Positions 17,129 through 46,100 of a DNA stretch of 52,656 nt are shown here, one piece after another (position 1 is the first letter of the stretch; each line of letters opens with the position of its first letter). Location of the stretch: positions 1-52,656 of the IMG/VR virus record IMGVR_UViG_3300011335_000305; one strand, 5' to 3'. The position numbers were made by a program, and so were the translations under genes. Below the pieces are notes generated by a model, which saw only the letters and a list, made by a program, of their open reading frames with translations, did not search any database and had not been told where the DNA came from. This DNA comes from a virus (taxonomy: Duplodnaviria > Caudoviricetes).

Positions 17129-17181
17129 GGTAATCTGATGATGGGGTTAATCCCCGAAACATTCGAGAGAATGTCATTACC
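17129..17181 (+). ncRNA. Type I hammerhead ribozyme HH1
   Basis: Stem I GGTAAT/ATTACC, core CTGATGA plus extra T, stem II GGGG/CCCC, GAAA, stem III CATTC-GAGA-GAATG, GTC cleavage after 17175. Confidence 0.9.
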
Positions 17182-17201
17182 AACTCTGCTAGGAGAATTA
17201 A

Positions 17202-18206: not shown

Positions 18207-18381
18207 TCAGATAGAACACTTCCGTTTACTTACTTTACGCCAAATGCTCAAGCTTGAATTACTAGGCATGAAGCGTAGTGGGAGATCAGCTTACGCCATC
18301 ATCAAAAGTGAGTTAGGACTAAAGGGCAATAAGAAGTCCGTCTTTGATCAGCTATCGGATATGTTGGGCAAGTCAAACTGA
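18190..18381 (+). CDS. Early hypothetical protein
   Basis: 63 aa; LKLELLGMKRSGRSAYAIIK motif; stop codon lies inside the HH2 core. Confidence 0.75.
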   Translation: MLNTPNQIEHFRLLTLRQMLKLELLGMKRSGRSAYAIIKSELGLKGNKKSVFDQLSDMLGKSN

Positions 18382-18423
18382 AGAGTCTTCAATAGACGAA
18401 ACTGGTGCGAACCAGTCTTTGAC
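18372..18423 (+). ncRNA. Type I hammerhead ribozyme HH2
   Basis: Stem I GTCAAA/TTTGAC, CTGAAGA, stem II GTCT/AGAC, GAAA, stem III CTGGT-GCGA-ACCAG, GTC cleavage after 18417. Confidence 0.93.
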
Positions 18424-18442
18424 AAACTGCTAGGAGTTAAAA

Positions 18443-19225: not shown

Positions 19226-19486
19226 ATGGATATTAAATTTTTTGCAGATCCTGCACATGGATGGGGTGAAGTGCCGATTAGCCTGATTAAAGAATTGGGC
19301 ATAGCTGACCAAATAAGCCACTACTCTTATATGAAAGGTGATAACGCATACCTTGAGGAAGACTGTGATCTGTCAGTCCTTATGAACGCCTTAGAAGCGC
19401 AAGGCATTACTGCCAATTTTGTTGAAGTATGGACAAACAACGATAGTCCAGTGCGTAGGTATCAGAGTTTTAAATTATCAAACTGA
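19226..19486 (+). CDS. Early hypothetical protein
   Basis: Start MDIKFFADPAHGW after GGAG; YLEEDCD motif; stop codon inside the HH3 core. Confidence 0.75.
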   Translation: MDIKFFADPAHGWGEVPISLIKELGIADQISHYSYMKGDNAYLEEDCDLSVLMNALEAQGITANFVEVWTNNDSPVRRYQSFKLSN

Positions 19487-19527
19487 TGAGCCTGTAAGGG
19501 CGAAACTGGCGTGAGCCAGTCTTTGAT
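19477..19527 (+). ncRNA. Type I hammerhead ribozyme HH3
   Basis: Stem I ATCAAA/TTTGAT, CTGATGA, stem II GCCT-GTAA-GGGC, GAAA, stem III CTGGC-GTGA-GCCAG, GTC cleavage after 19521. Confidence 0.93.
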
Positions 19528-19549
19528 TAACTTGCTAGGAGAAATTATT

Positions 19550-20080
19550 ATGCCAAATTGGTGCTATAACAATTTAACGATTGATGGAACGACAAAGGGT
19601 GGAAAGATTCTTGCTGAAGCTTTTAGACCGAAATATCCGATGGATGATGGAACATTGGATGCAAATCCTTTCCAAGACTTGATGCCGATTCCTGAAGATT
19701 TACGCATTGTATCAGGGTGGTTTGGTGATGGGACTGACAAACAGAATGAAATGCAAAAGCTATACGAAGCCAATAAGGAAAAGTATGGTTTTGAGAATTG
19801 GTATCACTGGTGCATAGCAAATTGGGGAACGAAGTGGGATGCCACTGTTCAGGATTTTGATGACAACAATATCAATGATATTCGTGTTTACTTTGAGACG
19901 GCTTGGAGTCCACCATTGGACTTTTTGAGTTGGTTCTGCGAACAACATCCTGATACAGTTTTTACCCTTAACTACGATGAAGAGGGTTGTTCGTTTGAGG
20001 GTGAAACTACCCATAATCCTGAAGATGGTTTTGTTGACAATTGTTGGACACCTGAAATGGCCTTGGAGGATGCAGAATGA
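19550..20080 (+). CDS. DUF1281 / YubB (Api92-like) ferredoxin-fold protein
   Basis: MPNWCYN start, WYHWCIANWGTKWD and FETAWSPP motifs. Confidence 0.8.
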   Translation: MPNWCYNNLTIDGTTKGGKILAEAFRPKYPMDDGTLDANPFQDLMPIPEDLRIVSGWFGDGTDKQNEMQKLYEANKEKYGFENWYHWCIANWGTKWDATVQDFDDNNINDIRVYFETAWSPPLDFLSWFCEQHPDTVFTLNYDEEGCSFEGETTHNPEDGFVDNCWTPEMALEDAE

Positions 20081-20364: not shown

Positions 20365-20435
20365 TGCAGTAATCCTGATGCCCAGTTGGGCATTGGGATT
20401 GCCATTGGGGTGATCATAACTGCTAGGAGATTAGT

Positions 20436-20747
20436 ATGGATTTTCAAAGAGATTTAAAAGTTGGCGAGTATGTTTTGATGGGTTGTGGGACAGATAACAA
20501 CGGCAAAAGGGATCAAATTTCTGCTTTATGCTATTGGCGTAACAGTCCTGACAAAGCCAAAAACATATGCATGAGATTTGGGAAAGTAATAAAGGCGATG
20601 TGTATTACTTGTTAAGGGTTGAACGAGTTTGTATGTTCGGGCAGTTACCCAATGGTTATTGATCTTCCCAAGCCTGTTGAAAGGGTTAATTTGACACTGG
20701 AAAAAGCCGAAGGCGATGACTGGAATGTTTTCCAAGGGGATGAGTAA
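20436..20747 (+). pseudogene. Interrupted early gene
   Basis: Strong leader and ATG at 20436; one in-frame TAA at 20613-20615; the same frame resumes to a stop at 20747 that overlaps the next ATG. Confidence 0.5.
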
Positions 20748-25569: not shown

Positions 25570-26391
25570 TTACTTCTTTTTTTGCAGAGATTTGATTTGA
25601 CGAATCAATTCAGCATTTCTTGACTGATACATGTCTCTGCTATCTCTTAAAGTTTTGTTTTCCATTTCTAAGATCTTGATCGTCTCTCGCAACTCTTTTA
25701 CTGTGTCCTGTATGTCCTCTATTTCGATGTCTGTGGCATCTTCCCATCGATTAGAGGCGATAATGTCTTTCAGTTTGGCATTCTCATCATCCAAGTTCTC
25801 TATCGTTGTAGACAGTTCTTTTAACTGGTCTTCAGTTTTGTCATAAACTGGCTTTTCTTCAGCAACATTTGTCTTTAATGATTGCGTGTTTACTTTTATT
25901 TCTTTTTTGTTTTTATCAATATATATTTTTTCAGTAGTAAATTCCTTTAACTTTTTAGCTTCAATCATTGCCAACTTGACACGACCAACAGTCATTGCAG
26001 ATACTTTTATTTTTTTGGCAATCATGGTGTTGGTGTAATTTTTATACACAGGATGATTGAACATAATTTCAATGGCATGACGATTATCAGCATGGCTTGG
26101 TCTTAAGCCGTTGTCTCCGTTTGCCGTCAATGAAAAGTCTAATGCATCATCTTTAGTGCCTTGACGAAGATCAACATCTACAGAGACAGTGCCATTTTTC
26201 TTATTGGCAAAGTATCTGTGAAAGCCTGATGAAAGCCAGTAATCAGAGCCGTCATGGAAGACAACCATTAAAGGAAATTGATGCCCTTCCTTCATGAGTT
26301 CAGCGTATTCGTCTACGGCTTGTGTATTTAATTCTTTACGAGTTTGTGTGCCACCGTCTGTACGAATGGCTAATAAATTCAAAGTTTTCAT
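25570..26391 (-). CDS. ParB/Srx-domain protein with HTH and coiled coil
   Basis: TQTR...VDEYAE...YWLSSGFHRY ParB-like motif; NTMIAKKIKVSAMTVGRV HTH. Confidence 0.75.
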   Translation of the reverse strand: MKTLNLLAIRTDGGTQTRKELNTQAVDEYAELMKEGHQFPLMVVFHDGSDYWLSSGFHRYFANKKNGTVSVDVDLRQGTKDDALDFSLTANGDNGLRPSHADNRHAIEIMFNHPVYKNYTNTMIAKKIKVSAMTVGRVKLAMIEAKKLKEFTTEKIYIDKNKKEIKVNTQSLKTNVAEEKPVYDKTEDQLKELSTTIENLDDENAKLKDIIASNRWEDATDIEIEDIQDTVKELRETIKILEMENKTLRDSRDMYQSRNAELIRQIKSLQKKK

Positions 26392-26417
26392 TTTCTCTCC
26401 TAGCAGTTGGAAATTCC

Positions 26418-26446
26418 AGTTTATTAAAAATTACAGATTAAAGCAA
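26418..26446 (-). promoter_or_regulatory. Sigma70-like promoter for the ParB-helicase-primase unit
   Basis: TTGCTT-N17-TAAACT, followed within about 10 nt by AACTGCTAGGAG. Confidence 0.55.
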
Positions 26447-26863
26447 GACTATTTCAACAAATTTGTCTTTGGGTACATCATAAAAATATTCTCCGTCAGC
26501 TATCCTCCTGTTGGGTATCTCCATCAACGGACTTGCCAGTATCTCTTTAACATTGATATACCAAGCTTTTGACAGACTTTTGTTGATGACAAAGTAAACC
26601 GTTGGCATATCGTTGTCGAATAACTTCTTCTTCCGTTGGGGAATGTGTATAGTCCTAAATGGGCAATCTTCCCAGTCCCGCATTTCAACCTCGGCATAAC
26701 CGATTGGTACAGAAAACTCATTCTCAATTAATAAATCTACCTTGTATTTGTCATATGGCAGAGCCGTATAGTCCCATCTGTTCTTGAGATAAGTTGTCAA
26801 CGCTTCCCTTGCCGGTGGATCGCATTGATCATGGATGTATTGGTCGAATGGTTTAATTTTCAT
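26438..26863 (-). CDS. Putative PD-(D/E)xK nuclease-fold protein
   Basis: YKVDLL...YAEVE motif; 141 aa. Confidence 0.5.
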   Translation of the reverse strand: MKIKPFDQYIHDQCDPPAREALTTYLKNRWDYTALPYDKYKVDLLIENEFSVPIGYAEVEMRDWEDCPFRTIHIPQRKKKLFDNDMPTVYFVINKSLSKAWYINVKEILASPLMEIPNRRIADGEYFYDVPKDKFVEIVLL

Positions 26864-27225
26864 AAGTAAAAAGACAATAGTTTCCCCAAGGGTGATAAGC
26901 CCTCATCCATTACGAAGTAACTATCGCAACTAATGCTCCCTAAGGTAATGTTCAATCGTCATAGTAGTTGTCTCACCTCTGTCCACTATAACTTGTGTGA
27001 TACCCATTTAAGTCCACGAGGCACGCTATCGGGTGAAGGATCAGCCTATGTTCTATTCCACGCAACCCATGTAGGTTCTTGATATCGTTTGGAGTACGTC
27101 AGTACTAGGAATGACACACAAAATGGCATAAATTTATACACATGAAACTAAAGTATATAAAAATATTCAATTTGTTTTCAGAGAATTGTTTCAGTCTCCG
27201 GTGTCATTCCTAGCAGTTGAGCCTA

Positions 27226-27255
27226 CAGATTAAACTATTTTTAAATATTTTGCAA
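27226..27255 (-). promoter_or_regulatory. Sigma70-like promoter
   Basis: TTGCAA-N17-TAATCT; spacer shares 14 bp with the sRNA promoter spacer. Confidence 0.5.
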
Positions 27256-27260
27256 CAGAT

Positions 27261-27299
27261 AAAAAGAAAGAACCCCAAATTTTTTAGATATGGGGTTCT
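27261..27299 (-). terminator. Rho-independent terminator of the sRNA
   Basis: AGAACCCCA/TGGGGTTCT stem followed by TTCTTTTT on the minus strand. Confidence 0.75.
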
Positions 27300-27387
27300 G
27301 GGTGTGGATAAGCAGGCATCCATGCCATCATTTGATTAACCCTGCTAGGAGTAGACACCAGATTGATGGCAGTACATGGGTTTGTAC
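27261..27387 (-). ncRNA. Putative trans-acting antisense sRNA
   Basis: Own promoter and terminator; stem TGCCATCA/TGATGGCA encloses a loop with CTCCTAGCAGGGTTAATCAAA, complementary to early-gene leaders. Confidence 0.7.
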
Positions 27388-27393
27388 CTACTA

Positions 27394-27423
27394 AGTATAG
27401 TGTATTTTTAAATATTGTGTCAA
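27394..27423 (-). promoter_or_regulatory. Sigma70-like promoter of the sRNA
   Basis: TTGACA-N18-TATACT. Confidence 0.75.
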
Positions 27424-27710
27424 TATATTGTACCTATATGGTTATTTTCAAACAACCAGCCAATTGTTTTTCGATGGCATTCATCCCATAACTCGATTCT
27501 TTCTTGCTTGGAAAGCTTGTTACCTTGATCTAATTCCATATGGCAAGAGTAACAAAGTGCGCCAATTCTGTAGTCATGGGCTTTGATTCCACGGCCTTTG
27601 CCGTCCCGTAGCTGGTTAGAATGCGCAGCCACCACCGTTCCATCGTTTCTGCCACAGTGTTGACAGGGTGATTGACGGACAATTTCTAGTAATTTCTTAT
27701 TTCGATACAT
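27420..27710 (-). CDS. DUF1364/DUF968-like His-Cys nuclease-like protein
   Basis: PCQHCG...TVVAAHSN...GKGRGIKAHD...LCYSCH. Confidence 0.7.
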   Translation of the reverse strand: MYRNKKLLEIVRQSPCQHCGRNDGTVVAAHSNQLRDGKGRGIKAHDYRIGALCYSCHMELDQGNKLSKQERIELWDECHRKTIGWLFENNHIGTIY

Positions 27711-27868
27711 GGAATCCTTAAAGTTGGGTGGATGTGTAGATTACTTGCCACCCCCAAGTTCGGAAAAGCCGATTAGGCGCATAAATTTTAAGGGGAGACA
27801 CCTAACCGATAATTGGTAATTTCGTATCTACAAGACTATAAAACCAAGCATGAATAACCTCCCCCCAA

Positions 27869-28066: not shown

Positions 28067-28249
28067 TTATATGTCTTCTCTTTTATATTTCTTTAACAAA
28101 AAATACTTAAATTTTCTTAGTGCCTTCTTCTCTACTTCGCTAACTCTGCTTCTTGACATACCCAAAATTTCTGCTACTTCCTCTTGGCTCATATGCCCTT
28201 CATCGTTTCTTGGTGACTTACTTTTTGGCATATCTTCCTCTTCATGCAT
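28067..28249 (-). CDS. Sigma70 region-4-like HTH protein
   Basis: MSQEEVAEILGMSRSRVSEVEKKALRK. Confidence 0.8.
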   Translation of the reverse strand: MHEEEDMPKSKSPRNDEGHMSQEEVAEILGMSRSRVSEVEKKALRKFKYFLLKKYKREDI

Positions 28250-29628: not shown

Positions 29629-29822
29629 CTGTCGCTCCTCATTGTTCGTTTAGCTTCTTCACACAACTTTGCGTAATCCTTGGGTACATCGGGATGCCAT
29701 CCACCCAACAGTAGTTCGCAGTTTAGTTTATATACTTCTTCCTTACGACTCAACTCGGTTAGGTAAATGATAAGCCCGCAGAACACAATCCACATACATA
29801 CAATAATTGGTATTGATTTCAT
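29625..29822 (-). CDS. Small membrane protein
   Basis: N-terminal TM helix; NC...GWHPDVP...C. Confidence 0.6.
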   Translation of the reverse strand: MKSIPIIVCMWIVFCGLIIYLTELSRKEEVYKLNCELLLGGWHPDVPKDYAKLCEEAKRTMRSDR

Positions 29823-30418
29823 TAGTAACCCTCAGATAATTTTATCTTAGCTTCTTTTAAACTTTTAACAGCACTTGCAACTCTTTTTGCCCAGCACTGA
29901 ACTTTTTCCTTGTGTTTTTCTTCGTCACGCTCATTCCAACCAAACTCTGTATCTCTTTCTGGTGGCACTTCTTTTGTTTTCTCCCATAATGTTGGACTAA
30001 TACCCAACAAATCATCAAGTACAGATGTACGAGAAGGGTGACGCAGTTTTCGAAAAGCTTTGGCTTCAATCTGACGGACACGTTCTTTATGTATTGAATA
30101 CATACTGGCAATTTGTTCAAGACTGTAATCAGTAACAGTGTCAATCCCAAAACGAAATTGAAGAATTTTTGATTCTCTAGGCGTTAAGCTATCTATCATT
30201 CGTCTTACTGTTTGTTTAAATTGAATCTCTTCCAAGATATCTTCAGGGCCAAAAAATTCAGTTAACTGTTCAATTTCTTCCGGATTAATTGTTTCATAGC
30301 TAGACTCTTCTTCAACAAAATAAGTTGGAGTAAAGTCCCCACTTAATGGCAATAGCCCAAGAGAGCCAATAACTTCACGCTCTCTGTAATGCATGGCAGT
30401 TTTATATTTTTTTCTCAT
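29822..30418 (-). CDS. RpoD region-4-like protein
   Basis: LTPRESKILQFRFGI...DYSLEQI...ERVRQIEAKAFRKLRHPSR is close to the sigma70 C-terminus. Confidence 0.85.
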   Translation of the reverse strand: MRKKYKTAMHYREREVIGSLGLLPLSGDFTPTYFVEEESSYETINPEEIEQLTEFFGPEDILEEIQFKQTVRRMIDSLTPRESKILQFRFGIDTVTDYSLEQIASMYSIHKERVRQIEAKAFRKLRHPSRTSVLDDLLGISPTLWEKTKEVPPERDTEFGWNERDEEKHKEKVQCWAKRVASAVKSLKEAKIKLSEGY

Positions 30419-33473: not shown

Positions 33474-33695
33474 TTACCTAACAATCAATTTAGAAAACAA
33501 TACAACTAACACAGTTAATATAAGAAACTTAACCATGTATTTAGCAATAATGCGATCTTTAGAGCTTTTAGGTTTTGCTAACAAAGCTTCCTGTAGAAAC
33601 AGCATATCTTTGTCATCAATTTGCATTGTGGTACCATTCTCACCATGCCGTGAGCCAATCTTTAAACCAGTTTTGGTTGTATAAGGTGTGTTCAT
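33474..33695 (-). CDS. Small membrane-anchored hypothetical protein
   Basis: PYTTKTGLKIG motif and C-terminal TM helix; TGCTAGGA leader. Confidence 0.65.
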   Translation of the reverse strand: MNTPYTTKTGLKIGSRHGENGTTMQIDDKDMLFLQEALLAKPKSSKDRIIAKYMVKFLILTVLVVLFSKLIVR

Positions 33696-33725
33696 TTTTG
33701 ATTTCCTAGCAGTTAATCAGACTAT

Positions 33726-33754
33726 AGTTTGCATGATATAATTTGATATGTCAA
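33726..33754 (-). promoter_or_regulatory. Sigma70-like promoter of the recombination operon
   Basis: TTGACA-N17-CAAACT followed by the TGATTAACTGCTAGGA leader. Confidence 0.55.
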
Positions 33755-33783
33755 TAGGTTGTACCCATATTTAGTCACCTACT

Positions 33784-34125
33784 ATGAAAATAATTAATTT
33801 ACCTTGGCCTCCGAAAGAATTATCCCCCAACGCCAGTATTCATTGGTCTAAGAAGGCAAAGTACAAAAAATTGTATCGGGAAGCTTGCTGGGTTTTAACC
33901 CTAGAAACTAAGCTAACAGTAGATACATTAGGGAAAGTCCCTATAGAGATAACCTTTTACCCACCCGATAAAAGACTGCGGGATGCGGATAACATGGTTG
34001 CCAGTATTAAATCTGGCTTGGACGGGGTAGCTGATGCTTTAAAAGTTAATGATAGGCAATTTTTGCCTACCTTTATTTTTACAGACGAAGTTAAGGGGAT
34101 GGTTTCTGTTCGGCTTGTAGTCTAA
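33784..34125 (+). CDS. rusA: RusA-like Holliday junction resolvase
   Basis: LPWPP...LSPN, FYPPDKRLRDADN...KSGLDG...VND motifs. Confidence 0.8.
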   Translation: MKIINLPWPPKELSPNASIHWSKKAKYKKLYREACWVLTLETKLTVDTLGKVPIEITFYPPDKRLRDADNMVASIKSGLDGVADALKVNDRQFLPTFIFTDEVKGMVSVRLVV

Positions 34126-37100
34126 ATCGAATCGTTTGCTCTAAGATTCTTTCTTTGGTTAACTTTAAGTTATTAATCTCAGCCCGTTTTTGTTCTGCAT
34201 TCCTCTGCGACTCAGGTAATTTTTCAATTCTACGGATATTGGAATTAATTTCAGACAAGTCCTTACCAGCTTGTTGAGTAAAGCCATACGCCTTGATCTC
34301 ATTAATATGATCTTGATACCATGACTTTGCTTCTGCCGTTTTCTGATTCTTCATCAAATCTCGGTATGTTGCCATAGCCACTTCGGTACGTTGTTTTAAG
34401 TCATAGAATAAGTCTTCTCTACCTCTTGGTACGTCAGGCGCTACAAAGCTTCCATACAGAGGATTAGAACGCTCTTCTGGCATTGGTCTATTATTCCCTA
34501 GGGCATTAGACATCCACATTGCTGTAGCCGCCACAGTGCCCCCTAAACCACGCATGAGGTGATCTGCTTCCATTGGGTTTAATAAACGCTTTTCTTTACC
34601 CCCTGTAACAGAGCTTAACCATTTGCCAAGTTCAGAAGTTGCAGCATTGTACTGCTCAAAAGCGGCTAAGTTTTCCATACCTCTTGGTGTAATCCTACCG
34701 CCAGTAAAGAAGTTACGGTTTAATTTAATTTCAGCCAAGGGCTTTAATCCTGTTGGCACTGGTCCCGATCCCAATGGACCAGCAAACGCATCAATAAGTC
34801 CTTCATGTAGGGCTTTACGCAGTCTTTCGTTATCTACTGCATCCTTTGTTCCTTCTTTTGTTATCTGATTAAATAACATTTCTGGAATAGACTTAAATAG
34901 ATAGCTGGCAGATGTATGCATTGGTATTAACAAAGTATGATCGTAACCAACTTCTTTCATTAACTTCTTAGGAATAACAAAGTTACGCATCTTTGTTTGA
35001 TCATCCATCTTGTTATATTCGTCATCATCACCGATGGCGTAACAATATAAAAGAACGGTTGCCGATAAGCCAAGCCCTGCAATAGTTAAACGAGTAATAG
35101 CTTTTTGACGATCCAGTCCTTTTAAGTTGCCACTGACACTAGTTACTTTTGCCCCAGTTAACTTTTCAATTCCGGCAGCTGGCACTTCCATTAACGCTTG
35201 TGTTAGTACGTCAATTTGCTGGGCAAACGCATTCATAAACGAAATAGTACGGTTTAAGAATTGCGCTGTAGCACTGTTGCCACGCTTTTCAAAGTCAATC
35301 ACATTGGTTGCAGCCAGTAGCGCTGCTCGCATGTCACCGCCAACAACTTTGCCATTAACAATCTTACCGCCAGATTCTATAATTTTCCGCATAAACACGG
35401 CTCTACGCTGTGAATAGTCAGAGGCATCACCAATCCGATCAAGCAATTTAGTAATCTTGGCGTAAGTAGACTGGTTAAGCAAACCCATTTCCTGTTTAAA
35501 TTCTTGCTCAGCAGTTCTTGCCGTAGAAGTAAAGCCACCAATACCATGTGATTTAAGTATTTGTACAACTGGATCATTGCTATTTAAAGCTTTAATGGCG
35601 GAAGAAAATACTTTAGTCCACAGGGCTAATGGGTTTTTTACACCTGTTACCAGCATAGCCGTTGGCGCATCCATAAATACTTGTTTGGCTTGGAACGCTG
35701 GGGAAATAGTTACTGCTCTGCGTAAGCCGTTGGCAAAGAATGATAGAACCGTTCCCATAGGCACTTGAATGCTTTCAATACCAATTGCAGCTTGAGCAAT
35801 CAGTGGATCAGCAATTTGAATATTTACCTTGCGACCATTAACTAAAATCTTAATAATGCCTTTTGAATGATCTTCTTGTGGGAATACTTTTAATTTGCCG
35901 TTCTCATTACGAACACCATACTCTTGGGCAATTCGGTTCATGGCGTAATTTTTAATAACATTACGGACTGTAACCATAACATTGTGAATCATGTTGTCCA
36001 CAATATCATCAATATCTAAATCAACTTCACCTTCTTTAAATTTTTGTTCTCTAGAAACATTTCGCACTGCTTTTGTGCCATAAGTATATTTTGGCGTAGC
36101 AGGACGGAACCAGCTTGCAGAATGAACATCCTCTTGGTCATCCATAATACGATTCCAAGGAACGTAATCCTCAATTTCTCTTAATGATTGAGCACGTCTT
36201 TTATCAATCATCTTTGCAAACTCCATGAAATCTACCATGTTTTTGTTAACAGCGCCCCAGTTATCCATCATCTGACGGAGTTCTGGGTGGAGTTTTTCTA
36301 AGTCACTGTATTTGTCAATCTCTTCATCGGTTAAGTTAACCTTGTCTAAAGCTATCTTAATATTTCGTAACCCTAATTCTGCATCGGCAATCTTGTTTAA
36401 CAGTGTTAACTGACGCTCTACACCAGTAGCCGGATCCATTTGTTCTGTTTTAAGATCTTCTAATTCACCCTCACGTTTCAGGTATTCATTCACAATAGAA
36501 CGGGAACGCTTAGCTTCAAAGTAAGCTTGAATTGCTTTGTAAGACAGCTCTCGACCAATACGATTTTCTAACTTATGTTTTAAGTCAATCACATTAGCCA
36601 TTGAATACTTGCTTTCTGATGCAGCAAACATTTGCTCATTTGGGTCGAATGCAAGCATTCCATCTAAAATTACTTGAGTTCCTATACGGGTAGCTCGTAA
36701 TGCTTGATTCATTGCCACAGAAGCTACAGCACGATTTTGGCTATCCTCTAGCATACGCCCATACCTTGCGGCATCAGCAGCTGTTAAGCCGGCAGTAAAG
36801 TCAGTTGTCTTAATCCTTGCGGCAAGAACTACACGATCTACATTGCCAACTAAATTAACTGCGGCCTGTTTAGGGTTGACAAGCATATTCCTACCAATAC
36901 GATTGGCTTCCTTCATGCCACCCATCAGCTTGTCATAGTTTGAGCCGGATACAGACAGAGGAGCATCTGGTCTATCTTTTAATATATCTTCTGTGGTTTT
37001 AATATTGTTAATAAAATCTAGTTTAACTTTGCCTTGGGTAAGGTAATCCACCAACATAATATTATGGGATCTTGGTGTTTCACCTTTAATCAACTGATTG

Positions 37101-40100
37101 AAAGCTTTGTAAATTGGGTACTGGTTATTAAACCCAAATACGGATTTTAATCCTTCAAATAACTGTTTGACAAATTGTACAAACCGATGCCACGGAGTAC
37201 CCATTTTGGTAGCAAATAACCGTTCAGCATTAACAGCCCAGTATTCAGATGGGTTAATGTACTGATACATATCCATGTTTGGGCACAAAGATGCTGCAAT
37301 ATCAAAATTTTCCTTTGTTGGTCTTTCAATAAAATCTAAGACAGCTTTGAAATATTTTGCATTAACAGCGTCAGTGTTCTTTTTAATTGCAGCGTCTAAC
37401 GCTTTTTTCCAAGAATCTATAATGGCATCTCTGGTCTGAGGTGTCATCATATTTTCTAAGGTATGCATTAATTCATGGCGAATCGTAACTGGACTGTTTG
37501 TTCCAAGACCTTTGTACAAAGTAACCAGTTTTGAAAATGTATTGTAATTTCCAATAGAAGAGCCTGTTTCATTCTTACGAACAGATAACTTAATGCCAGT
37601 TAATAAAGCTGGAGTTCTGTCGTAAAGGTATCGAATAACATTTAAAGTTTCTTCGCTGATATTGCTTTTAGAAAACTCATCAAAAGCTTTCTTCATAAAA
37701 TGTTCAGGCGTATCATTCTTTGGCGTAGTTAACTTGATGTCTTGTTTTAACTCATCAGACAATTCAAGTAACCTAGATAGTTCACGCTGATAGCCAATGG
37801 TTACTTCGCCCTTGGCAACTTTCTTCATAATGTGAGCAGAGCGTTGACGGAGTTTTTTATACTCCGCTATCTGTTCATCATGGATACGTTTAATGGCAGC
37901 CGTTACTTTTTCATTAGGTTTAAATGTTATTGCATTAGTTTGAATAGGTTTTTGGGTATAGCTAGTTAATGTATAACCTTCACTATGGGCTTGACGGTCA
38001 TACTCTATAATTTTTTCAGGAGACAATACACCATCTTCCAATTCAGCGCCATTAAAAAAACTAACTTCAACAGGTATATATTTCCACCCTAATTCTTTTG
38101 CCACCATAATGCGATGGTTTCCTTCGTTTACATAAGGAGTACCATCTTGGTAAATGTTTAAAAATGGAGCATAGTGTTCTGGCTCTTGCTCTGGTCTAAA
38201 TGCCGGCAATTTATTATTCTTACTCATGTAATTAGTTAGCCATTTAATGGAGTCTGAACGAACATTTTGTTGTTCAGCTCGCATACCTTGCAATTTTGCT
38301 AATACATTTACAGGAAGAAGAACTTCTCTTTCACGAACACCTTCACGTCTAAATGATGCAGTAACAGAACCAAATCTTTCTGGTACTCCATATTTATCTA
38401 CACCATCTTCTTTTGACTGTTCTCTCTTACCTCTTAACCATCCACCGCCCGGATTATCCGTTCTTAATGTCAGTAGCTTGGCTGTTGGGAACGCCATGTT
38501 GTTTGTAGGAATAATGGGGCCAAATAATTTCTTCGCCTCTTCCTTTTTATTCAAAGCAATTAACGAATCACCTTTTTCATTTATTAAATAGTCAATAACT
38601 TTCTTTGCTGTTTCCTGTTCATAAGTAAAGGCATACATCGTGCTACCTGACTTATAAAAATCACCCAGTAACTTTGTTAATCTGCTATCTAAGAAATAAA
38701 TGCCACCAGTCTTCTTTGAGCTTGGTACGTTAAATTGAATTTTTCTATTATTACCAATAATTTGTAAAACTTTATCAGCTGTGCCAATAGTTCCGTTAGC
38801 TTCTGTTAAAAACTTTATAGCATCATCTGCTGATTTTATTTTTGTTGGTGCATCACTTTGTGCTTTGGTAAAGTCATATGTCCTTGGCATTAAAACACCT
38901 TGCCCAGTTGTGCCATCCGATTTTGTATAGGTCATAATCTGACCTTGGTTGTCTACAACTGGAGAAGCAAAGCCAGATAAAATGTTACCAGTTACCATCC
39001 AGCGTTTTTCACGCCTAACTGTTGCACCCTTGTCAAACAAATCCATTAAATCAATATTTTCTGCTACGCCAGTTTCAGGGTTTAACCAATTAATAATACC
39101 CTCTTGCGCTAATTGATATGTAGTACCAATTTGAGAAAAGTTTATTGAAGTAGATTTAGCTTCACCATTTGCCAAAGCAATTGTCATTTTCCAATCAGAA
39201 CCAGCAGCTGGATTCTTTGTTTTACCTTTTGTTTCTACGTTGGTGATCACGCCATAAACAAAAACACCTTGGTTATTCTTAACAGAAATAGCCGTACCAA
39301 TTGGGTAAGCTCTTAAAATAGTCTTAATGTGGTTTTCATTTAGACGTAATTGGTCTAATGTTTTATTAGTTTTTACTTCGTCAGCTTCACTTTCTTTTAA
39401 TTCAGCTTTCTTTTGCTCAATAAAAGCTTTCATTGCGCCACTGAGTACACCATTCTGCTCATTGCCAATTTGTCTACCGCTTACATTACCCAAATTTTCA
39501 TCAATTATTTGTTTTACTTCTGCCTTGGAATATGGCTTAACAGTACGCTTAACATCAATTTGTTCCATAAATGCTGGTCTAGCAAATAAAGAATCACCTT
39601 TTGATTCAGTAATGGGTGTAGAAGATAATGTTTCAGCATCAAGGTCAAAAGCCTTAGCTTCAAGCTTATTGGTTCCCATACTGTTTTCACGCTCAAGCAA
39701 ATCGTTGTAGCGTTCAACTAAGTCTTTGTAGATTTCCTCTTGATCTTTAATTGGCAATATGGGAATGTAACCCGTTAATTTACGAATGTCTTCTTCATCA
39801 GCTTCAGACGGATCATCCGATATTTCTAATAATTTTTTACCACCCAATGCTTCATAAATTTCTGGGTTGTCATTTAAAAACTCTTGAGCAACTTGACCAC
39901 CGTACTCATTCATAAAGTCTACAGCACCTTCAGCAGTTACAGCAGACTTACGAGAAGCTGTTGTATTCGCATTAAGTGATGCCATTTTCTTTAACAGAAC
40001 GGCAGCTGGGCGCATTTCTGCGGGAATATCAGCCATCATCTGTGAATAAAACGGAGGTTGAATTTGTCCAGTTCGATGTACCCGCCCAAGCATTTGCATA

Positions 40101-43100
40101 TGCGTATCAATGTTCTTTTCAGCCTGAACAATAATCATATGGCGCTTTTTTGTATTTTTTAATCCTTTTTTGGCGTGTAAAGATAAACCAGTAGAGCCGG
40201 CTTGATTTAATATGATTACTCTAATATCACCGTTATTAAATGCTTTAACTGAGTTAACACGGTCTTTAATACTGGGTGAACGAGGCATTAATAATGGCGT
40301 TCCACTCTCATAATTTATAGTTAATGTACGACCAGTAATCTCACCTGTTTTATATCCAAGTTTGCGTAATTCGCTATGCATATAATCAATTGGTGACATT
40401 GGAGCAGAACCAAACCCAGCATTATTAATAAATGTTTTAATGGCGTTGTATTGCTCTGTTAATGTTGGCCCAAGATCTTGATCAGTCAAACGGTAGATTT
40501 GAAAGTCTTCTTTTTTAACTGCTCCGGGCGGTTTAATAGTTACTGTACGTTGTTTTTCTAAATATCTTAAATACAAATCTTTAAAGGATAAGTTAATTGG
40601 ATCACCAGTTTTAAGTCCCATTTCATCTGCATATTGCTGTAAGAATGAGCCCATTGTATTAGATACAGTTAATACAACTTGCTCGCCACGCTTTAAACTT
40701 TCTACAGCATGTTTAATAGAATCCTGTGCCTTCAATGACAATAACATTTGGTCAATCAAGTTATGCATTGTTGAGCCAAAGTTAGCAGATTGGACTTGGG
40801 TTTTTTCTGACCCTCCCCTTATTATTGAGCCACGCTTATCTAATTCTTTTTGTATTTCACCTACTGCTTTTTCCTTCTCCCTAGAGAATGACAAAATATC
40901 ACGCATAGACGTAGCCATGTTTTCGGCAGTAGCTTTGTCAACTTTAGTTTCAACAGTGTTATAACTTACACCGGCAAATGTACGCTCTCTACGAATATAC
41001 TGTCCTACTTGTGTAAGCATGTTTGCAACAATCTGTTGCATCGGAATGCCGCCATTTTTAATAGCTTCACCCAGTTCTGATATGTTATCCACAGCAAGGC
41101 TCATATCTGTGCTGGAATACAAATCCATTACATCTGGGCGTTTAGCGTAAGTGGCTGATGAAAAGAAAGAGCCAAAAGAATTGTTAACCATTTCACGAAT
41201 AAATGAAGAACGGCCTGTGCCTTCTTCATCGGATTTTTTACTTGTGCCGCCAGCGTTATGGCTTTCGTCTAAGATTAAGTATCCGTCATTACCAAAATGA
41301 TTTAAAAAAGCTTGGCGTTCTGTTGGCGCTTTTTTAACCATTTGTGTCTGAGAATAATTAGTAAAAATAACCTTGTAACGACCAAGACTGTCATCTGCTC
41401 TTAATTTCTTAAACAGTGCCGTTAATTTATACCCTGATTTTTTTTCATCTTTTAGAGGTGCTTTTAATATAAAATCTTTTTCAACGGGCTCACCATTAAC
41501 TTGTCTTATTAATGTGTAAGGCACTGGCTCATTGTTGTTAGTTACTATTATTTTAGGATTATTGGACTCTAAAGCTAACTCATCAGTCATGCCAATATCA
41601 TCTAAATCCCTAATCATGTCAGAGTACAGATTGGGTTTTTCTGTCATAAATATTGGTGTTTTGCCATTTAACAAAGCATACTTAATCATGCCAGCTACAA
41701 CACGACCTTTACCAACACCTGTTTGATCGCCAATAATAAATCCTTTACCAGCTTCAGCGTTGCTAATTGCTAATGCAAGAGCATCTATTTGCTCAGCCGA
41801 GAATTTCTCTCTTAATGTTTCAGGATCCATTTGTAACGCTTCGGCTACATATTCATCAATATCGCCAAATTGTGCTTCCAGTTTAGTAAGAGACTGGTCA
41901 ATGGATTGTGCCATTGCTCTTGGAGCTAATGTTCCAACAGCTGCGGCTTGAGAATGCGGAGTATAACTTACCTGATTCTCGGTTTCAATTTCTTCACCCC
42001 TACGGTCTTTTAATCTAGACTCGATTGGTATACCTGTGTCAGTGCTAGGTTCACCCAATCCTCTAGGCTCGTTTCCTGTATCGCTTGTTCCGCCTCTGGG
42101 CTGTTCTCCTTTAGCTGTGCTGGAAACGGGTTTTCCAACATCTGCAGGTTCAGGTTTGTTAACAGGTTTAGGTTGTCCTTCACTAACACCTGTCCCAGTT
42201 GATTCGGGTTGTCCACGCTTGGTAGGTCCAGCTTCAGACACGCCTTGTCTGCCGCCTCCTGCGGGTTCTTTTCTTCCAGCACTAGGTTCATTACCCTCTC
42301 CGCTAGGGCGTTCACCCAATCGCTCTGACTCACCTCCCCTGCCGGTAGGTTCACTGATGTCAGTTCCACTGGTGCCAATATTTTCTCCGGATACCATGCT
42401 AGATTCATTTAGCTTCTCCTTTAACTGTTCATAGTTTTCAATAATTTTTGGAAGATCCCCAGCCGGTAATGATCTTTTAGGCAGAGTAAATCTAAGGTTT
42501 TTTGATTCCCATTTTCCGTTAATAACAATAACATCAACAGGATAACTAGCGCCCTGTTTAGAATACATATCGCCAGCTATCGTAAAGTGATCTACTACGT
42601 TGTAATCTTTATATAAATTAACGTAAAAATTACGTTTAGATGCGCTACGATATCCTTCACGCCTTCCTTCTTCTGTATTTGATTGAACGCCACCAACAAT
42701 TAAAACAGCACGACCATTACTTCTCATGCTTTGTAAAGATTTCATAACAATAGCGTGATCAATTTCTCTAGTTTTAAACCCGTCAATATTAAAATCTTCC
42801 CCAATAGATCCAAATGGAGGATTTTCAATAACAACATCTACAGTACTTGGTGTTACTTTTACACCGTTTTCATTAGTAACTTTGGCACCAGAAAGTACTT
42901 TTTTAAGCATTTCAAAACGGCTAGAGTTAAGCTCGTTTGCTATTACCTTCTTTGGGTTAGCATCAATCAACAGCATTCCGTTACCAGCTGTTGGTTCGTA
43001 TACGGTAGTGCTATCTGTTATTCCAGCCAGTTTACTAGCTACAAATGCCAATGGTGCTGGGGTTGAATACGCCTGTTCTCTAACACTGGTTGAAGAACGC

Positions 43101-46100
43101 ACAGCTAAGTTTGGCTGACGATTGTACAAGTCTACCAACTTGTCATATGCATCCGCAGTCATCTTAGTATTTTGGGCAATATCCTGCGCAGCTAATACTA
43201 CGCCAACTTCAATAGCTTCATCAGCTTGTTTAGCCTGTAAAGTACCAGCTTCAATCTTTACACCAGTCATATCTGATATAAACTTACGGCCTTCTATAAT
43301 TGTTCCAAAGCCATTGCCAGCTATAAAGTGTTGTGATACAGCTTGTGCAATTTTAAACTTACCATCCACCGTACCTAAATCGGCTTTAACTTCTGGTTTA
43401 GTTGTTTTGTAATCTGTTTTAAAAGTAACTTGGTTTTTATCAAACACAACTACTTCTTCAACTTTAGGACCATTCTCGTAAATAATTCCATCAAAGCCAG
43501 CAGATTTTAATTTTTCTATTCTGGCTTCAGAAAGTGAAAATGGAAGATCTGGACCCCATTTATCTCTTTGCTCTTCAAAATTAAATTCATCAATATAAAG
43601 TGGGTTTTCCATCTTTATGTAAGCTGGAATAGTATATACACCTTCATTGCCAAGTGGAGCATTATGAGCAGCTTGAATTAAATTTGGATCAGTGCCAAAC
43701 CATATAGCTTTACCACTACCATCCCCTTCAGGACCACCGGGAATTAATTCTTTTATTTGGTTACCATTTTTGTCAACAGCTCTAGTAGTATGATAAAAAA
43801 TAATGGGTTTGCCATTTTTATCGGCAATGTAACCATCTTTAGACGTTGTTAAATCTGTAGCTTCTAACTCTTTTTCGTCTAATTCATCTAAAGATTGAAC
43901 GCTAACCACTTCTATATTTTTACTGGCTTTTAACGGATAATTGCCAGACATGGCAATGTAAGAACCTTGCAAGTGATTTAAATTAATTCTGTCAGATACA
44001 TCCTTACCAAAAGTTTTCTTAATTAAATCCCGAACAAACTTAGCAGCTTGTTTGAATGTGTGATAACCCTTACGGAAAGCAGCGTCCATTAACTTAATAA
44101 GCGTTGGCATGAGGCGCTGTTCTTCTTCAGGCATCATGTTTATGCGCCCAGTCTTACCAGCCATCCAAGACAATTCACCCAAGGCATCCATTAAATCTTT
44201 ATCGGCTTGCTCTTCAGCTGTTAACTTAGGTGTTAGGTTGGTGTTAGGGCTTACAGCAGGGCTTACAGCAGGGCTTACAGCAGGGCTTACAGCAGGACTA
44301 ACAGGAGCAACTGGTTTAGGACTTAAAAACTCTCTAAGTAAACCCATATCTGGAGAATCAGCAAATGGACTAAAGAAGTCTCCATTTTTTATTCCAGCTG
44401 CCGTAGCTTCAGGAGAAACATAAACTTTTCCGTTCTTTTGATTAATTAAACCAGCTTGTTCTAGTTTCTTTAATACCGGCTTTGCTGCATCTTTATATTC
44501 AAGACCATTTCCATTTCTAAGAATTTGCCCAGCAAATGTAATGTCTTCTGGAGTTAAAGTCTTTTTAGCTTCTTCTGCAACTTTGGCTCTTTGAGCAACT
44601 TGCCGTTCTTGATTAATCTCTGCCTGTGGTTTAACTGGTGTTTCTACTGGCGGCACTATTTCTTTAGGCAAACCCAGCTTATCTTTGATATTACTTAAAG
44701 TTTCTTGTGGGTTTGCACCAACTTCAACGTCTAAATCTCTAGCCAATGAGTTTACGTTTCTACCATTTATTTCTGCTTCACCCGTATTAAATTGGTCAAC
44801 ACGCAATAAGGCACGTTGTTTTAATTCAGGATCAATTTCTTCTGGCTGAATTGTTGTTTGTTCTATTTTTTCTTTAGGAACAACTAATAATTGATCAGGT
44901 GTAAAGGCTTGCAGTTGTCCTATATCTTTAATAAGAATCGGTTGTTGATCGTCTTGATCATGGAATGCATATACTAAATCACCGTTACTTTGAGCTTGCT
45001 CTGCCTGATCTCTAGTATTAACAGTAGTTGCGTTTTCAAATATTTTTTCTAAATTTAATTGTGGATCAATAGATGGTGGCTGAACAACAGGGGGAACGGT
45101 TGGTGGAGCAACAGGAGGCGCAGTAGCAACTGGTGGAACAACAGGAGCTGGAGGCACAATTGGTTGCTTAGGGGAAATTATTCCTTGTATCTCATCTAAG
45201 TCTTCTTCTGAAACTAAACCCTGATCAATTAATTGCTGTATATCAGGATTGATGGGGCTAACAGTGTTAGCCCCCTGTACTGGAGGAACTACTGGAGGAA
45301 CTACAGGGGGAACTACAGGAGACATAGTAGGCTCTCGCTTTGATGGCTCTAATCTCCCTTTAAGTTGTTGATATTCTTCTTGTTCTTCTGGTGTAAAGTA
45401 TCTTGGATCTCTAGCTGGAATGGTTACTTTTTGACCATCAGCTCCCGTGTAAGTTCTTTTCTTTGTGCCAGATGTTATGTCGTTTAGTTCTTTAAAACGC
45501 TTTATTTCATCCTCAGTTGGTGCTCCTTGAACGGGAGGCGTTTGAGTTTTTGGTTGTGTAAATGCTGATACAGCACCCGGACCAACTCCACCTAACGCAC
45601 CTAGAACTAAATTAGCAAACGAGTCTGTACCAATATCTCTGACTACTGTTTTATCAATTCCTAAATCAGAAGCAATACCTTCAAAGTATTCTTGTACACC
45701 TTCTTCAGCAGATCCAGCAGCTAACATGCCCATACCACGAGCAATTTTGTTTTTAATTTGCGGGAGTGCTTTACTAAATCCACCAGTTAATAATTTGGTT
45801 GTAAAGTTTCCACCAAAAGCTCCAACAATACCTTGGGCACTGGCTGCTAAATCGCCAGCTTTATCTTCCGTCATCCGTCTAGCTAACTTAGGATGAGTAC
45901 CCATTGCCACCAGATTTCTAAAGTATTCACTGTTTTTAGATAACTCAGTATCATTCATTGAGTTAACATGGTCACGGGCATTACTAATGCCTTCAGAAGC
46001 TGCTGATGTAAAACCTAATCCAGTACCAAGTGGTACGCTTTTAGTTATTAATGCTGATGCTAATAAAGGTGCGCCAGAGCCTAAAACTTTTACAGCCTGT

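What the first reader, a model, noticed from the sequence alone, without database searches (positions are those of the whole stretch)
27261..27423. Phage sRNA antisense to the ribozyme-generated leaders: a candidate hammerhead plus sRNA regulatory circuit
Seen: a minus-strand unit with promoter TTGACA-N18-TATACT (27423-27394) and an intrinsic terminator (27299-27261), with no ORF. An 8-bp stem (27323-30/27364-71) encloses a loop containing CUCCUAGCAGGGUUAAUCAAA. This pairs with the exact 5-prime end produced by HH3 (UUUGAUUAACUUGCUAGGAG, 19522-19541) over 20 bp with one bulge and one GU. It also pairs with the HH1 leader (17182-17195, 14 bp, one GU), the HH2 leader (18427-18437, 11 bp) and the leaders at 20418, 26398, 27208 and 33704, nearly all covering an SD. 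Established analogy: the trans-acting antisense RNAs C4 of P1 and CI of P4. Inference: one sRNA silences early, replication and recombination units together, as a temporal switch or immunity system. I know of no description of this coupling to hammerheads.
Basis: partly seen in the sequence, partly recalled or inferred. Interest (0 to 1): 0.95.

Follow-up and report, generated by a model that had tools for sequence, protein, structure and literature searches.

The report
Phage small RNA matching early-mRNA leaders
An uncultured freshwater phage carries a small-RNA gene whose loop is complementary to a short box near the 5' end of its early messages, three of which follow predicted self-cutting hammerhead ribozymes, and whose variable flank has co-evolved with the leader of the neighbouring replication operon.

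Summary
On the minus strand at 27423-27261 there is a TTGACA-N18-TATACT promoter, four hairpins, a terminator and no conserved ORF. This sRNA gene recurs in 97 of 367 related viral loci (46 distinct sequences), and all 46 keep the loop core CCUAGCAG.

The interpretation needs re-centring. The co-evolving target is not the hammerhead-3 leader. It is the 5' end of the transcript from a second conserved promoter (P2, 27255-27227), which lies just after the sRNA terminator and leads the replication operon.

- **Covariation:** across 20 distinct relatives a 14-bp intermolecular helix is 90% paired (shuffles 76.5%, 0/500 as high). Seven of its 8 variable pairs show compensatory changes.
- **Swapped cassettes:** the closest relative matches the window at 48 of 51 positions from the -35 box to the -10 region, and nearly throughout the terminator, P2 -35 box and downstream leader. 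It differs sharply in the sRNA body and the P2 leader hairpin.
- **Shared box:** CUGCUAGG(AG), complementary to the core, precedes six start codons. Three of these follow predicted hammerhead cleavage sites. The arrangement is family-wide (38 distinct hammerhead-box units).
- **HH3 pairing:** the 20-bp match is not conserved.

No expression data could be obtained. I read this as a new phage antisense-RNA family that works like P4 CI and P1 C4 but is not a member of their family.

The parts
27394..27423 (-). sRNA promoter: -35 TTGACA 27423-27418, 18-nt spacer, -10 TATACT 27399-27394
   Evidence: 11 of 12, best in 18 kb. Present in most relatives aligned (L021/L024 lack a recognisable one). 48 of 51 positions from the -35 box to the -10 region match the closest relative.
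27261..27387 (-). Predicted sRNA, about 127 nt: SL1, SL2 carrying the seed loop, SL3 and the terminator. The start is inferred from the -10 box.
   Evidence: z = -3.9. An nhmmer profile finds it in 97 of 367 viral loci, 46 distinct sequences.
27372..27387 (-). SL1, the 5' hairpin
   Evidence: The stem sequence differs between relatives while pairing is kept.
27323..27371 (-). SL2: the 8-bp outer stem 27371-64/27330-23 encloses the recognition region
   Evidence: The stem is kept through changes in relatives, e.g. the window against L076, L068 and L435.
27342..27349 (-). Invariant seed core CCUAGCAG (CUCCUAGCAG is 27351-27342), predicted to sit in an apical loop
   Evidence: Present in 46 of 46 distinct sRNAs. 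Mean unpaired probability is 0.66 against 0.45 for the whole RNA, and the core is the higher in 24 of 25.
27352..27363 (-). Variable 5' flank of the seed. This is the specificity region that pairs with the P2 leader.
27331..27341 (-). 3' flank GGGUUAAUCAAA, which extends the pairing with the HH3 leader
   Evidence: Not conserved in the closest relative.
27305..27322 (-). SL3 hairpin
   Evidence: A hairpin is predicted at the same place in most relatives.
27261..27299 (-). Intrinsic terminator: a 9-bp G+C-rich stem followed by a U run
   Evidence: Compensatory changes occur in terminator pairs across 23 relatives.
27227..27255 (-). P2 promoter: -35 TTGCAA 27255-27250, 17-nt spacer, -10 TAATCT 27232-27227
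   Evidence: Read. TTGCA plus TAAYCT is conserved in nearly all relatives. It falls below the threshold of the simple scan.
27195..27216 (-). Box CUGCUAGG (27216-27209) and 5' arm of the P2 leader. This is the cognate target of the sRNA.
   Evidence: (-32.0 kcal/mol, the best non-self site in the window).
27103..27215 (-). P2 leader long hairpin. The 5' arm 27213-27201 pairs with the 3' arm 27117-27105. An inner hairpin 27199-27180 carries the loop CUGAAACAAU.
   Evidence: In 39 of 42 relatives' leaders the box and flank are predicted to pair with a downstream arm.
26864..27102 (-). Non-coding remainder of the P2 leader, lying before the 141-aa gene, the ParB-like gene, the helicase and the primase
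   Evidence: Nearly identical to the closest relative.
17129..17201 (+). HH1 (predicted cleavage after 17175), tail, box 17186-17195, ATG at 17202
18372..18442 (+). HH2 (predicted cleavage after 18417), tail, box 18427-18436, ATG at 18443
   Evidence: (Hammerhead_1, 29.3 bits, E = 0.0033).
19477..19549 (+). HH3 (predicted cleavage after 19521), tail UUUGAUUAAC, near-box UUGCUAGGAG 19532-19541, ATG at 19550
   Evidence: (hammerhead clan, 28 bits), (-29.1 kcal/mol).
20371..20435 (+). Conserved hairpin 20371-20400, box 20420-20429, ATG at 20436
26392..26406 (-). Box 26406-26397 in front of the ParB-like gene (ATG at 26391)
33696..33712 (-). Box 33712-33703 just downstream of the leftward early promoter (ATG at 33695)
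   Evidence: The same arrangement occurs in G001, G004 and G005.

Best explanation
The region 27423-27261 (minus strand) is the gene for a trans-acting antisense sRNA of about 127 nt, transcribed by host RNA polymerase and ended by an intrinsic terminator.

Its recognition region sits in stem-loop 2. It consists of the invariant core CCUAGCAG, predicted to be in an apical loop, and a hypervariable 5' flank.

The specific partner is the first 20 nt or so of the transcript from promoter P2. P2 starts about 40 nt after the sRNA terminator and leads the replication operon (141-aa gene, ParB-like gene, helicase, primase). In that leader the box and its flank otherwise form the 5' arm of a long leader hairpin.

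I infer that the sRNA captures this arm as it is transcribed and remodels the leader. The likely outcome is lower replication-operon expression through premature termination, duplex-dependent decay or loss of a stabilising 5' hairpin.

The sRNA body and the leader hairpin behave as a matched specificity pair that is swapped between otherwise near-identical phages.

Through the 8-10-nt invariant core alone, the same sRNA can also pair with the box CUGCUAGG(AG). In the hammerhead leaders this box lies 8-11 nt from the predicted cleavage site, and it overlaps the Shine-Dalgarno sequence. Three such leaders in this window follow type I hammerheads. This would give a weaker, general dampening of early translation.

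Shown here: the gene anatomy, its conservation, the intermolecular covariation, the box enrichment and the hammerhead-box linkage. Inferred: expression, the direction of regulation and the effect on the box leaders.
For: 1. Gene anatomy. The promoter matches 11 of 12 positions and the fold has z = -3.9. The promoter (in most relatives), the terminator and the architecture are conserved, with compensatory changes in SL1 and the terminator in 8 of 21 predicted pairs.

2. Invariant core. CCUAGCAG is kept in 46 of 46 distinct family members while the rest varies. It is predicted to be accessible.

3. Covariation with the P2 leader.
- Duplex energy is -30.8 kcal/mol for cognate pairs against -21.0 for non-cognate pairs, over 23 distinct pairs. 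None of 20,000 permutations did as well.
- In an ungapped register, cognate pairs match at 7.43 of 12 positions against 5.09, over 35 distinct pairs from 57 loci. None of 100,000 permutations did as well.
- A formal count on 20 distinct members covers 14 pairs. 90.4% of cells are paired (shuffled mean 76.5, 0 of 500 as high). 44 cells changed on both sides (shuffled 15.1, 0 of 500). The covariation score is 0.389 (shuffled 0.138). Slid controls give 39-49% paired. Seven of the 8 variable pairs have compensatory changes.

4. Window against closest relative. The sRNA promoter (48 of 51 positions from -35 to -10), the terminator, the P2 -35 box and the downstream leader are identical or nearly so. 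The sRNA body and the leader hairpin diverge sharply and the P2 spacer differs at several positions.

5. The P2 leader is the best non-self duplex site in the whole window.

6. Box statistics.
- 8 copies against 1.55 expected in the window.
- 5-9 copies per related genome against 0-1 for the reversed control.
- Outside the sRNA/P2 region, 14 boxes in 213 kb of sRNA-bearing loci against 4 in 286 kb of sRNA-free loci.
- 0 of 14 box-poor hammerhead loci (0 or 1 copy of the box) hold the sRNA.

7. Hammerhead-box linkage. 54 of 100 viral loci examined hold a full hammerhead core plus box. These give 38 distinct units, and stem II and III sequences differ between units while pairing is kept.

8. The downstream genes are replication genes.
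Against: - No transcript evidence. No RNA run was listed.
- Complementarity alone does not fix the strand. Energies are -30.8 on the given strand against -29.8 on the opposite strand (p = 0.13). The strand assignment therefore rests on the conserved promoter and terminator and on asymmetric conserved loops.
- For the box sites as a set (35 sites; 33 when the two P2 leaders in the set are excluded) there is no cognate preference (-22.95 against -22.61). Regulation of the hammerhead leaders rests only on an 8-10-nt seed.
- The box could be conserved for another reason, such as a translation signal or a protein site.
- One relative (L059) has a changed sRNA flank but the same leader as L058, and ranks poorly.
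- The cis 3' arm of the leader hairpin competes for the same 5' arm.
- The direction of regulation is not determined. An rpoS/DsrA-like activation by opening the hairpin is possible.
Confidence: 0.7

Rival explanations
1. The sRNA is mainly a global silencer of all box-bearing early leaders, with the hammerhead-made 5' ends (HH3 above all) as its designed targets. On this view the hammerhead coupling is the core of the circuit.
For: - The core is complementary to every box and covers the Shine-Dalgarno sequence.
- The HH3 leader is the second-best site in the window.
- The core keeps CAG in all 46 sRNAs, although in the major family the P2 leader pairs only with CCUAGC.
- The hammerhead-box linkage is family-wide.
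Against: - The extended HH3 pairing is absent in the closest relative, which has the same HH3 leader.
- There is no own-versus-foreign preference over 35 box sites.
- The HH3 energy is only 1.3 kcal/mol better than the best background site.
- All detected covariation is with the P2 leader.
Confidence: 0.2
2. It is not a free sRNA. Transcripts read through the terminator, and the two complementary segments form one long-range helix inside a single leader RNA. That would make it a cis riboregulator or attenuator of the replication operon.
For: The two arms lie about 140 nt apart on the same strand. In P1 and P4 the antisense RNA is cut out of the same transcript as its targets (P4: passages read in PMC4825925; P1: recalled).
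Against: - A strong intrinsic terminator with a U run and a separate promoter (P2) are both conserved between the arms. Both are near-identical to the closest relative even where the flanking cassettes differ.
- The leader has its own cis 3' arm.
Confidence: 0.08
3. The complementarity acts at the DNA level. The arms are inverted-repeat operator half-sites for a phage DNA-binding protein, or a recombination site, and the covariation reflects the protein's specificity.
For: The strand test is inconclusive. HTH and sigma-like genes lie nearby.
Against: - The arms tolerate bulges and G-U positions.
- The core sits in the predicted loop of a hairpin with covarying stems.
- The leader contains nested covarying hairpins with strand-specific conserved loops.
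- The flanking proteins of the window and L018 are 98-99% identical although the cassettes differ.
Confidence: 0.03

Closest known systems
CI RNA immunity of satellite phage P4 (seqB pairing with seqA and seqC)
   Same: In both, a small untranslated phage RNA pairs with complementary sites in the leader of the phage's own replication operon and keeps the replication genes from being expressed (passages read in PMC4825925). In both, the RNA gene lies in the same orientation as its targets and right next to them.
   Different: - CI is processed out of the leader transcript, and RNase P is involved (passage read in PMC5499578). Here the RNA has its own consensus promoter and terminator.
- No match to the Rfam C4 family, where CI is filed as I recall (cmscan E up to 1).
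- P4 is a lysogenic phage-plasmid. No integrase was found here.
- P4 has no hammerheads and no genome-wide box.
C4 antisense RNA of phages P1 and P7 (icd-ant operon)
   Same: C4 is a trans-acting antisense RNA encoded upstream of its targets. This parallels the swapped sRNA/leader cassettes seen.
   Different: - C4 blocks a ribosome-binding site to trigger termination before an antirepressor gene. Here the covarying target has no conserved ORF.
- C4 is processed by RNase P (PMC5499578).
- No Rfam C4 match.
Plasmid copy-number and incompatibility antisense RNAs (ColE1 RNA I/RNA II, R1 CopA/CopT)
   Same: All are small structured RNAs with a recognition loop that bind the 5' part of a replication transcript. 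Loop changes create new specificities (recalled; ColE1 is mentioned in passages of PMC5415839). The invariant CUAG fits the YUNR loop motif as I recall it.
   Different: Those RNAs are cis-encoded on the opposite strand and fully complementary. This one lies on the same strand, does not overlap its target and is complementary over only about 20 nt.
Clustered hammerhead ribozymes in prophages (Perreault et al. 2011)
   Same: Several hammerheads flank single genes or short gene blocks in phage transcripts, implying that long RNAs are cut into gene-length mRNAs (passages read in PMC3088659).
   Different: In the passages I read there is no conserved box after the cleavage site and no complementary sRNA. 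The function of such hammerheads is still described as open (passage read in PMC6765202).
DsrA/RprA activation of rpoS (anti-antisense)
   Same: The sRNA pairs with the 5' arm of a leader hairpin and so competes with a cis arm (recalled). This gives the alternative, activating reading of the P2 interaction.
   Different: No ribosome-binding site or start codon lies in the released 3' arm here.

Membership tests
Independently transcribed base-pairing sRNA gene | Own promoter | tested here: met
   TTGACA-N18-TATACT, 11 of 12, the best match in 18 kb. Conserved in most relatives aligned; 48 of 51 positions from -35 to -10 match the closest relative.
Independently transcribed base-pairing sRNA gene | Rho-independent terminator | tested here: met
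   A 9-bp stem plus a U run, with compensatory changes across 23 relatives. The simple scan missed it because of its loop-length limit.
Independently transcribed base-pairing sRNA gene | A discrete transcript is observed | not testable with these tools
   No RNA run was listed for the locus, so read laying could not be used.
Independently transcribed base-pairing sRNA gene | Seed complementary to its targets, with covariation | tested here: met
   for the P2 leader. For the other box leaders there is only an invariant seed and no covariation.
C4 / CI antisense RNA family (Rfam C4; accession recalled as RF01695) | Match to the family covariance model | tested here: not met
   cmscan of the window and of three related loci at E up to 1 gave no hit at the sRNA.
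C4 / CI antisense RNA family (Rfam C4; accession recalled as RF01695) | Released from the operon leader by RNase P processing | not testable with these tools
   The anatomy here argues for a primary transcript with its own promoter and terminator.
Hammerhead ribozyme, type I | Catalytic core CUGANGA ... GAAA ... UH with three helices and stem I open | tested here: met
   All three units in the window meet this. Across 38 distinct related units, stem II and III sequences differ while pairing is kept.
Hammerhead ribozyme, type I | Rfam gathering score | tested here: not met
   HH2 scores 29.3 against 34 and HH3 scores 28 against 48.5. HH1 is not reported.
Hammerhead ribozyme, type I | Self-cleavage | not testable with these tools
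   This needs in vitro transcription or mapping of 5'-OH ends.
cis-encoded antisense RNA (ColE1 RNA I type) | Transcribed from the strand opposite its target and overlapping it | tested here: not met
   The sRNA and the P2 leader lie on the same strand and do not overlap.
Antisense recognition loop with a YUNR U-turn | A YUNR motif in the loop that makes first contact | tested here: inconclusive
   CUAG in the predicted apical loop fits YUNR as I recall it. No structural test was possible.

The most novel reading that the evidence does not exclude
In this clade of uncultured, apparently non-integrating phages, early messages carry a common handle, CUGCUAGG, near their 5' end. That end is made by a promoter, by a hammerhead, or follows a conserved hairpin. 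A single sRNA reads the handle.

On this reading the hammerheads exist to expose the handle and the ribosome-binding site of each cistron. That would give phage hammerheads a concrete function.

The exchangeable sRNA/leader cassette would act as a specificity determinant. It would let a resident phage shut down replication of a superinfecting relative of the same type, making it an RNA-based exclusion or incompatibility system in lytic phages.
Probability: 0.25. Interest if true: 0.9.

Novelty: new variant of a known kind. Interest (0 to 1): 0.72.

Why it matters
Two things make this worth attention.

- **A new, large phage sRNA family with a bioinformatically identified target.** The case rests on intermolecular covariation, and natural swaps of the sRNA/leader specificity cassettes point the same way. 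That is rare for phage sRNAs. It also makes compensatory-mutation experiments easy to design.
- **A handle on what hammerheads do in phage genomes.** The reviews I read still call this question open (PMC6765202, PMC3088659, passages). In this clade each hammerhead would cut 8-11 nt upstream of one conserved box that overlaps the ribosome-binding site, and one sRNA carries the complement. Processing, translation and RNA-based control can therefore be tested together.

Five literature searches found no description of such a coupling or of this sRNA. It has no Rfam family, and the one member tested by blastn has no match in cultured-phage records. The four nearest cultured phages by terminase lack the box enrichment and the hammerheads.

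Tried and rejected
- **RNA evidence.** The look-up of sequencing runs (kind rna) on 26400-27800 listed no RNA holder, so read laying could not be used.
- **Rfam.** Nothing at gathering thresholds in the window. In E-value mode there were only two sub-threshold hammerhead hits. Three related loci gave only two chance-level hits elsewhere.
- **tRNA/tmRNA.** None.
- **Host or prophage search in genome contigs.** The major-family sRNA pattern found 0 stretches. None of the 120 has a hammerhead core, so I treat them as chance matches. Absence from bacterial genomes is not shown.
- **First loose hammerhead-box pattern.** It was replaced by tighter patterns.
- **Strand test by G-U asymmetry.** Inconclusive. 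My hand tally of the pair counts also showed no bias.
- **Mimicry idea.** The idea was that the sRNA copies the 3' arm of the leader hairpin. The longest common substring is 5.9 nt for cognate pairs against 5.2 for non-cognate pairs. Sequence mimicry is therefore not supported. Only competition for the same 5' arm is.
- **Crude TIR-versus-shuffle test.** It was noisy: 36 of 74 TIRs fell below -14 kcal/mol, against 14.8 for shuffled loops. It was superseded by the whole-window scan.
- **Co-occurrence of hammerhead-box units and the sRNA inside single loci.** Only 4 of 58 loci hold both, because the two features lie 6-9 kb apart and the loci are short. I used whole genomes instead.
- **RNAalifold on the mixed MAFFT alignment A2.** It recovered only 4 terminator pairs. 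The major-family alignment did better.
- **Rows dropped.** L032 and L034 were left out of the alignment used because MAFFT misregistered their leaders. L110 and L119 were dropped as duplicates of L040. L022, L023, L080 and L089 were set aside as false core matches.
- **Supplements.** The supplementary files of Perreault et al. 2011 were not opened. They may list hammerhead contexts relevant to the box.
- **Not used.** Structure prediction, fold search, complex prediction, the protein database searches and the metagenome-contig scan.
Full report
**Context.** The window is one IMG/VR virus record of 52,656 bp, linear and estimated 83% complete. Genes around the finding run on the minus strand. 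An early block from 33.7 kb holds an exonuclease, an Erf-like annealing protein, sigma-like and HTH proteins, and a 96-aa YbcO/HNH-like protein at 27710-27420. The finding follows. After it come a 141-aa protein, a ParB-like protein, a helicase and a primase, at 26863-23264. A plus-strand block at 16.9-23.3 kb holds the hammerheads. By large terminase the nearest cultured phages are about 55% identical: pelagiphages HTVC023P and HTVC027P, DSL-LC04 and 023Pt_psg01.

- The promoter is TTGACA (27423-27418), N18, TATACT (27399-27394). It is the best sigma-70 match in 16.5-34.5 kb, at 11 of 12.
- Promoter-like sites as a class are not enriched there (41 found, 52.8 expected). The weight therefore rests on conservation of this particular site.
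- RNA 27387-27261 folds into four hairpins with z = -3.9.
- The three hammerheads have complete cores and predicted cleavage after 17175, 18417 and 19521. Rfam sees two of them only below its gathering scores.
- TGCTAGGA occurs 8 times against 1.55 expected. Six sense copies lie 6-9 nt before start codons, one is in the P2 leader, and one (antisense) is the sRNA loop.

**It is a conserved gene family.** The 96-aa gene has 448 relatives in viral contigs, of which 80 loci were fetched. In 36 of the 80 a unit follows within 450 nt after four false motif matches are set aside. In nearly all of these the unit has the same promoter, a hairpin, the motif CCUAGCAG (one subfamily has CUUCUAGCAG), further hairpins and a terminator. 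A profile search over all 367 viral loci held found 97 copies and 46 distinct sequences, all with the core. The stem sequences differ between members while pairing is kept. The core is predicted to be unpaired more often than the rest of the RNA in 24 of 25 members. No Rfam family matches.

**The real partner is the P2 leader.** In 24 of the 25 sequences examined a second conserved promoter follows the terminator (TTGCA...TAAYCT; window 27255-27227). Its transcript begins with (CU)GCUAGG followed by about 12 variable bases. These variable bases are the reverse complement of the variable 5' flank of the sRNA core in the same phage. One case is a perfect 18 of 18 (L058).

Four tests agree:
- Cognate duplexes average -30.8 kcal/mol against -21.0 for non-cognate ones, with 0 of 20,000 permutations as good.
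- An ungapped count gives 7.43 of 12 against 5.09, with 0 of 100,000 permutations as good.
- A formal count on 20 distinct members gives 90.4% of cells paired, 44 double-sided changes against 15.1 in shuffles, and slid controls at 39-49%. L032 and L034 were dropped from this count for misalignment.
- In the window the P2 leader is the best non-self site for the loop on either strand.

The leader itself folds so that this 5' arm closes a long hairpin at 27215-27103. The same is predicted in 39 of 42 relatives. The sRNA would therefore compete with a cis arm.

**Specificity cassettes are swapped.** The closest relative has flanking proteins 98-99% identical to those of the window. It matches the window at 48 of 51 positions from the -35 box to the -10 region of the sRNA promoter. 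It is also identical or nearly so in the terminator, the P2 -35 box and the leader beyond the hairpin. It differs sharply in the sRNA body and the leader hairpin, and at several positions in the P2 spacer. This is the pattern expected of a matched recognition pair under diversifying selection.

**The box and the hammerheads.** CTGCTAGG occurs 5-9 times in each of five related genomes, against 0-1 for a reversed control. In these genomes it sits after hammerheads, after a conserved promoter or after a conserved hairpin, and in the leader copies listed it is followed by AG or AA and a start codon. Of 100 viral loci examined from a box-plus-tail scan, 54 have a full hammerhead core. They give 38 distinct units in which stem II and III sequences differ while pairing is kept.

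An unbiased hammerhead scan gave 34 distinct tails:
- 16 carry the exact box.
- 2 carry a near-box, including the window's HH3 type.
- 16 carry none, and many of these run almost directly into ATG.

The box tracks the sRNA. There are 14 boxes in 213 kb of sRNA-bearing loci against 4 in 286 kb of sRNA-free loci. No sRNA was found in 14 box-poor hammerhead loci. The four nearest cultured phages have neither feature.

**What is not supported.**
- The long HH3 pairing is specific to this lineage. The closest relative keeps that leader but has another sRNA 3' flank.
- Over 35 box sites in six genomes, two of which are P2 leaders, a phage's own sRNA is no better than a foreign one.
- The strand cannot be assigned from pairing energies.
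- No integrase was found in five genomes, two of them rated complete. A lysogenic immunity role is therefore doubtful.
- No expression data were available.

**Mechanism.**
- Shown: the anatomy, the conservation, the intermolecular covariation, the box enrichment and the hammerhead-box linkage.
- Inferred: the sRNA is made early by host polymerase. It binds the nascent 5' arm of P2 RNA and remodels the leader, most likely lowering replication-gene expression. Its invariant core can additionally cover the ribosome-binding sites of the box leaders.
- Open: the sign of the effect on P2, and whether the seed-only contacts matter.

**Comparison with known systems.** The system works like P4 CI, in which an RNA pairs with the leader of the replication operon (passages read in PMC4825925). 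It also works like P1/P7 C4 (recalled; RNase P processing read in PMC5499578). It is not a member of that RNA family, because it gives no model match and has its own promoter and terminator.

It differs from cis-antisense copy-control RNAs in lying on the same strand as its target and not overlapping it. Clustered prophage hammerheads are known (passages in PMC3088659), and their role is still called open (passage in PMC6765202). A 2026 paper links hammerhead cleavage to translation initiation in RNA viruses of fungi and plants (abstract of PMC13725137). Five full-text searches found no description of this sRNA or of a hammerhead-box-sRNA coupling.

**Verdict.** The finding is real and conserved. 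It is a new family of phage antisense RNA. The hammerhead coupling rests on a shared box and is still unproven as regulation.

Noticed in passing
window 20371-20429 (+); also G001, G002, G003, G004: A conserved hairpin (AAUCCUGAUGCCC-loop-GGGCAUUGGGAUU) followed by GCCAUU...AUCAUAA precedes the box in place of a hammerhead. The loop-proximal sequence differs between genomes. It could be a processing site or an unrecognised ribozyme. No Rfam hit.
   Followed up: partly
window 27199-27180 (-); L026, L040, L046, L050, L068, L073: The inner hairpin of the P2 leader has a conserved 10-nt loop (CUGAAACAAU, or variants such as AUGAAUCAAC) on stems that change sequence but keep pairing. It looks like a protein-binding or kissing loop.
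   Followed up: partly
window 26864-27102 (-): About 240 nt of non-coding leader lie before the 141-aa gene, which has no visible Shine-Dalgarno sequence. The stretch is nearly identical to the closest relative and well conserved in G003 (L041). It contains a 25-codon ORF (27007-26930). It could be an origin, a primer region or another structured RNA.
   Followed up: no
L466-L469, L471, L479, L482, L484, L486: In other phages a hammerhead of the same type cuts 9-25 nt before an ATG with no box and often no Shine-Dalgarno sequence (for example, a tail that runs into AUG after 10 nt). That would create nearly leaderless mRNAs.
   Followed up: partly
L058 versus L059: These two relatives share an identical P2 leader but have different sRNA 5' flanks. 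The L059 pair is poorly matched (-22.7 kcal/mol). It may be a recent recombinant or a mismatched pair.
   Followed up: no
window 34091-46744 (-): A single ORF of 4,217 aa, presumably a giant virion protein. It was not examined.
   Followed up: no
window 33712-33760 (-); G001, G004, G005: The leftward early promoter region (TTGACAT ... AGUCUGAUUAA-box) is conserved. If transcription starts shortly before CUGAUU, this box lies close to a primary 5' end. The hammerhead tails are 8-11 nt long.
   Followed up: partly
window 29822-30418 and 28067-28249 (-): Two sigma-factor-like/HTH proteins lie in the early block. P2 has a weak -10 box (TAAYCT) and could depend on one of them.
   Followed up: no
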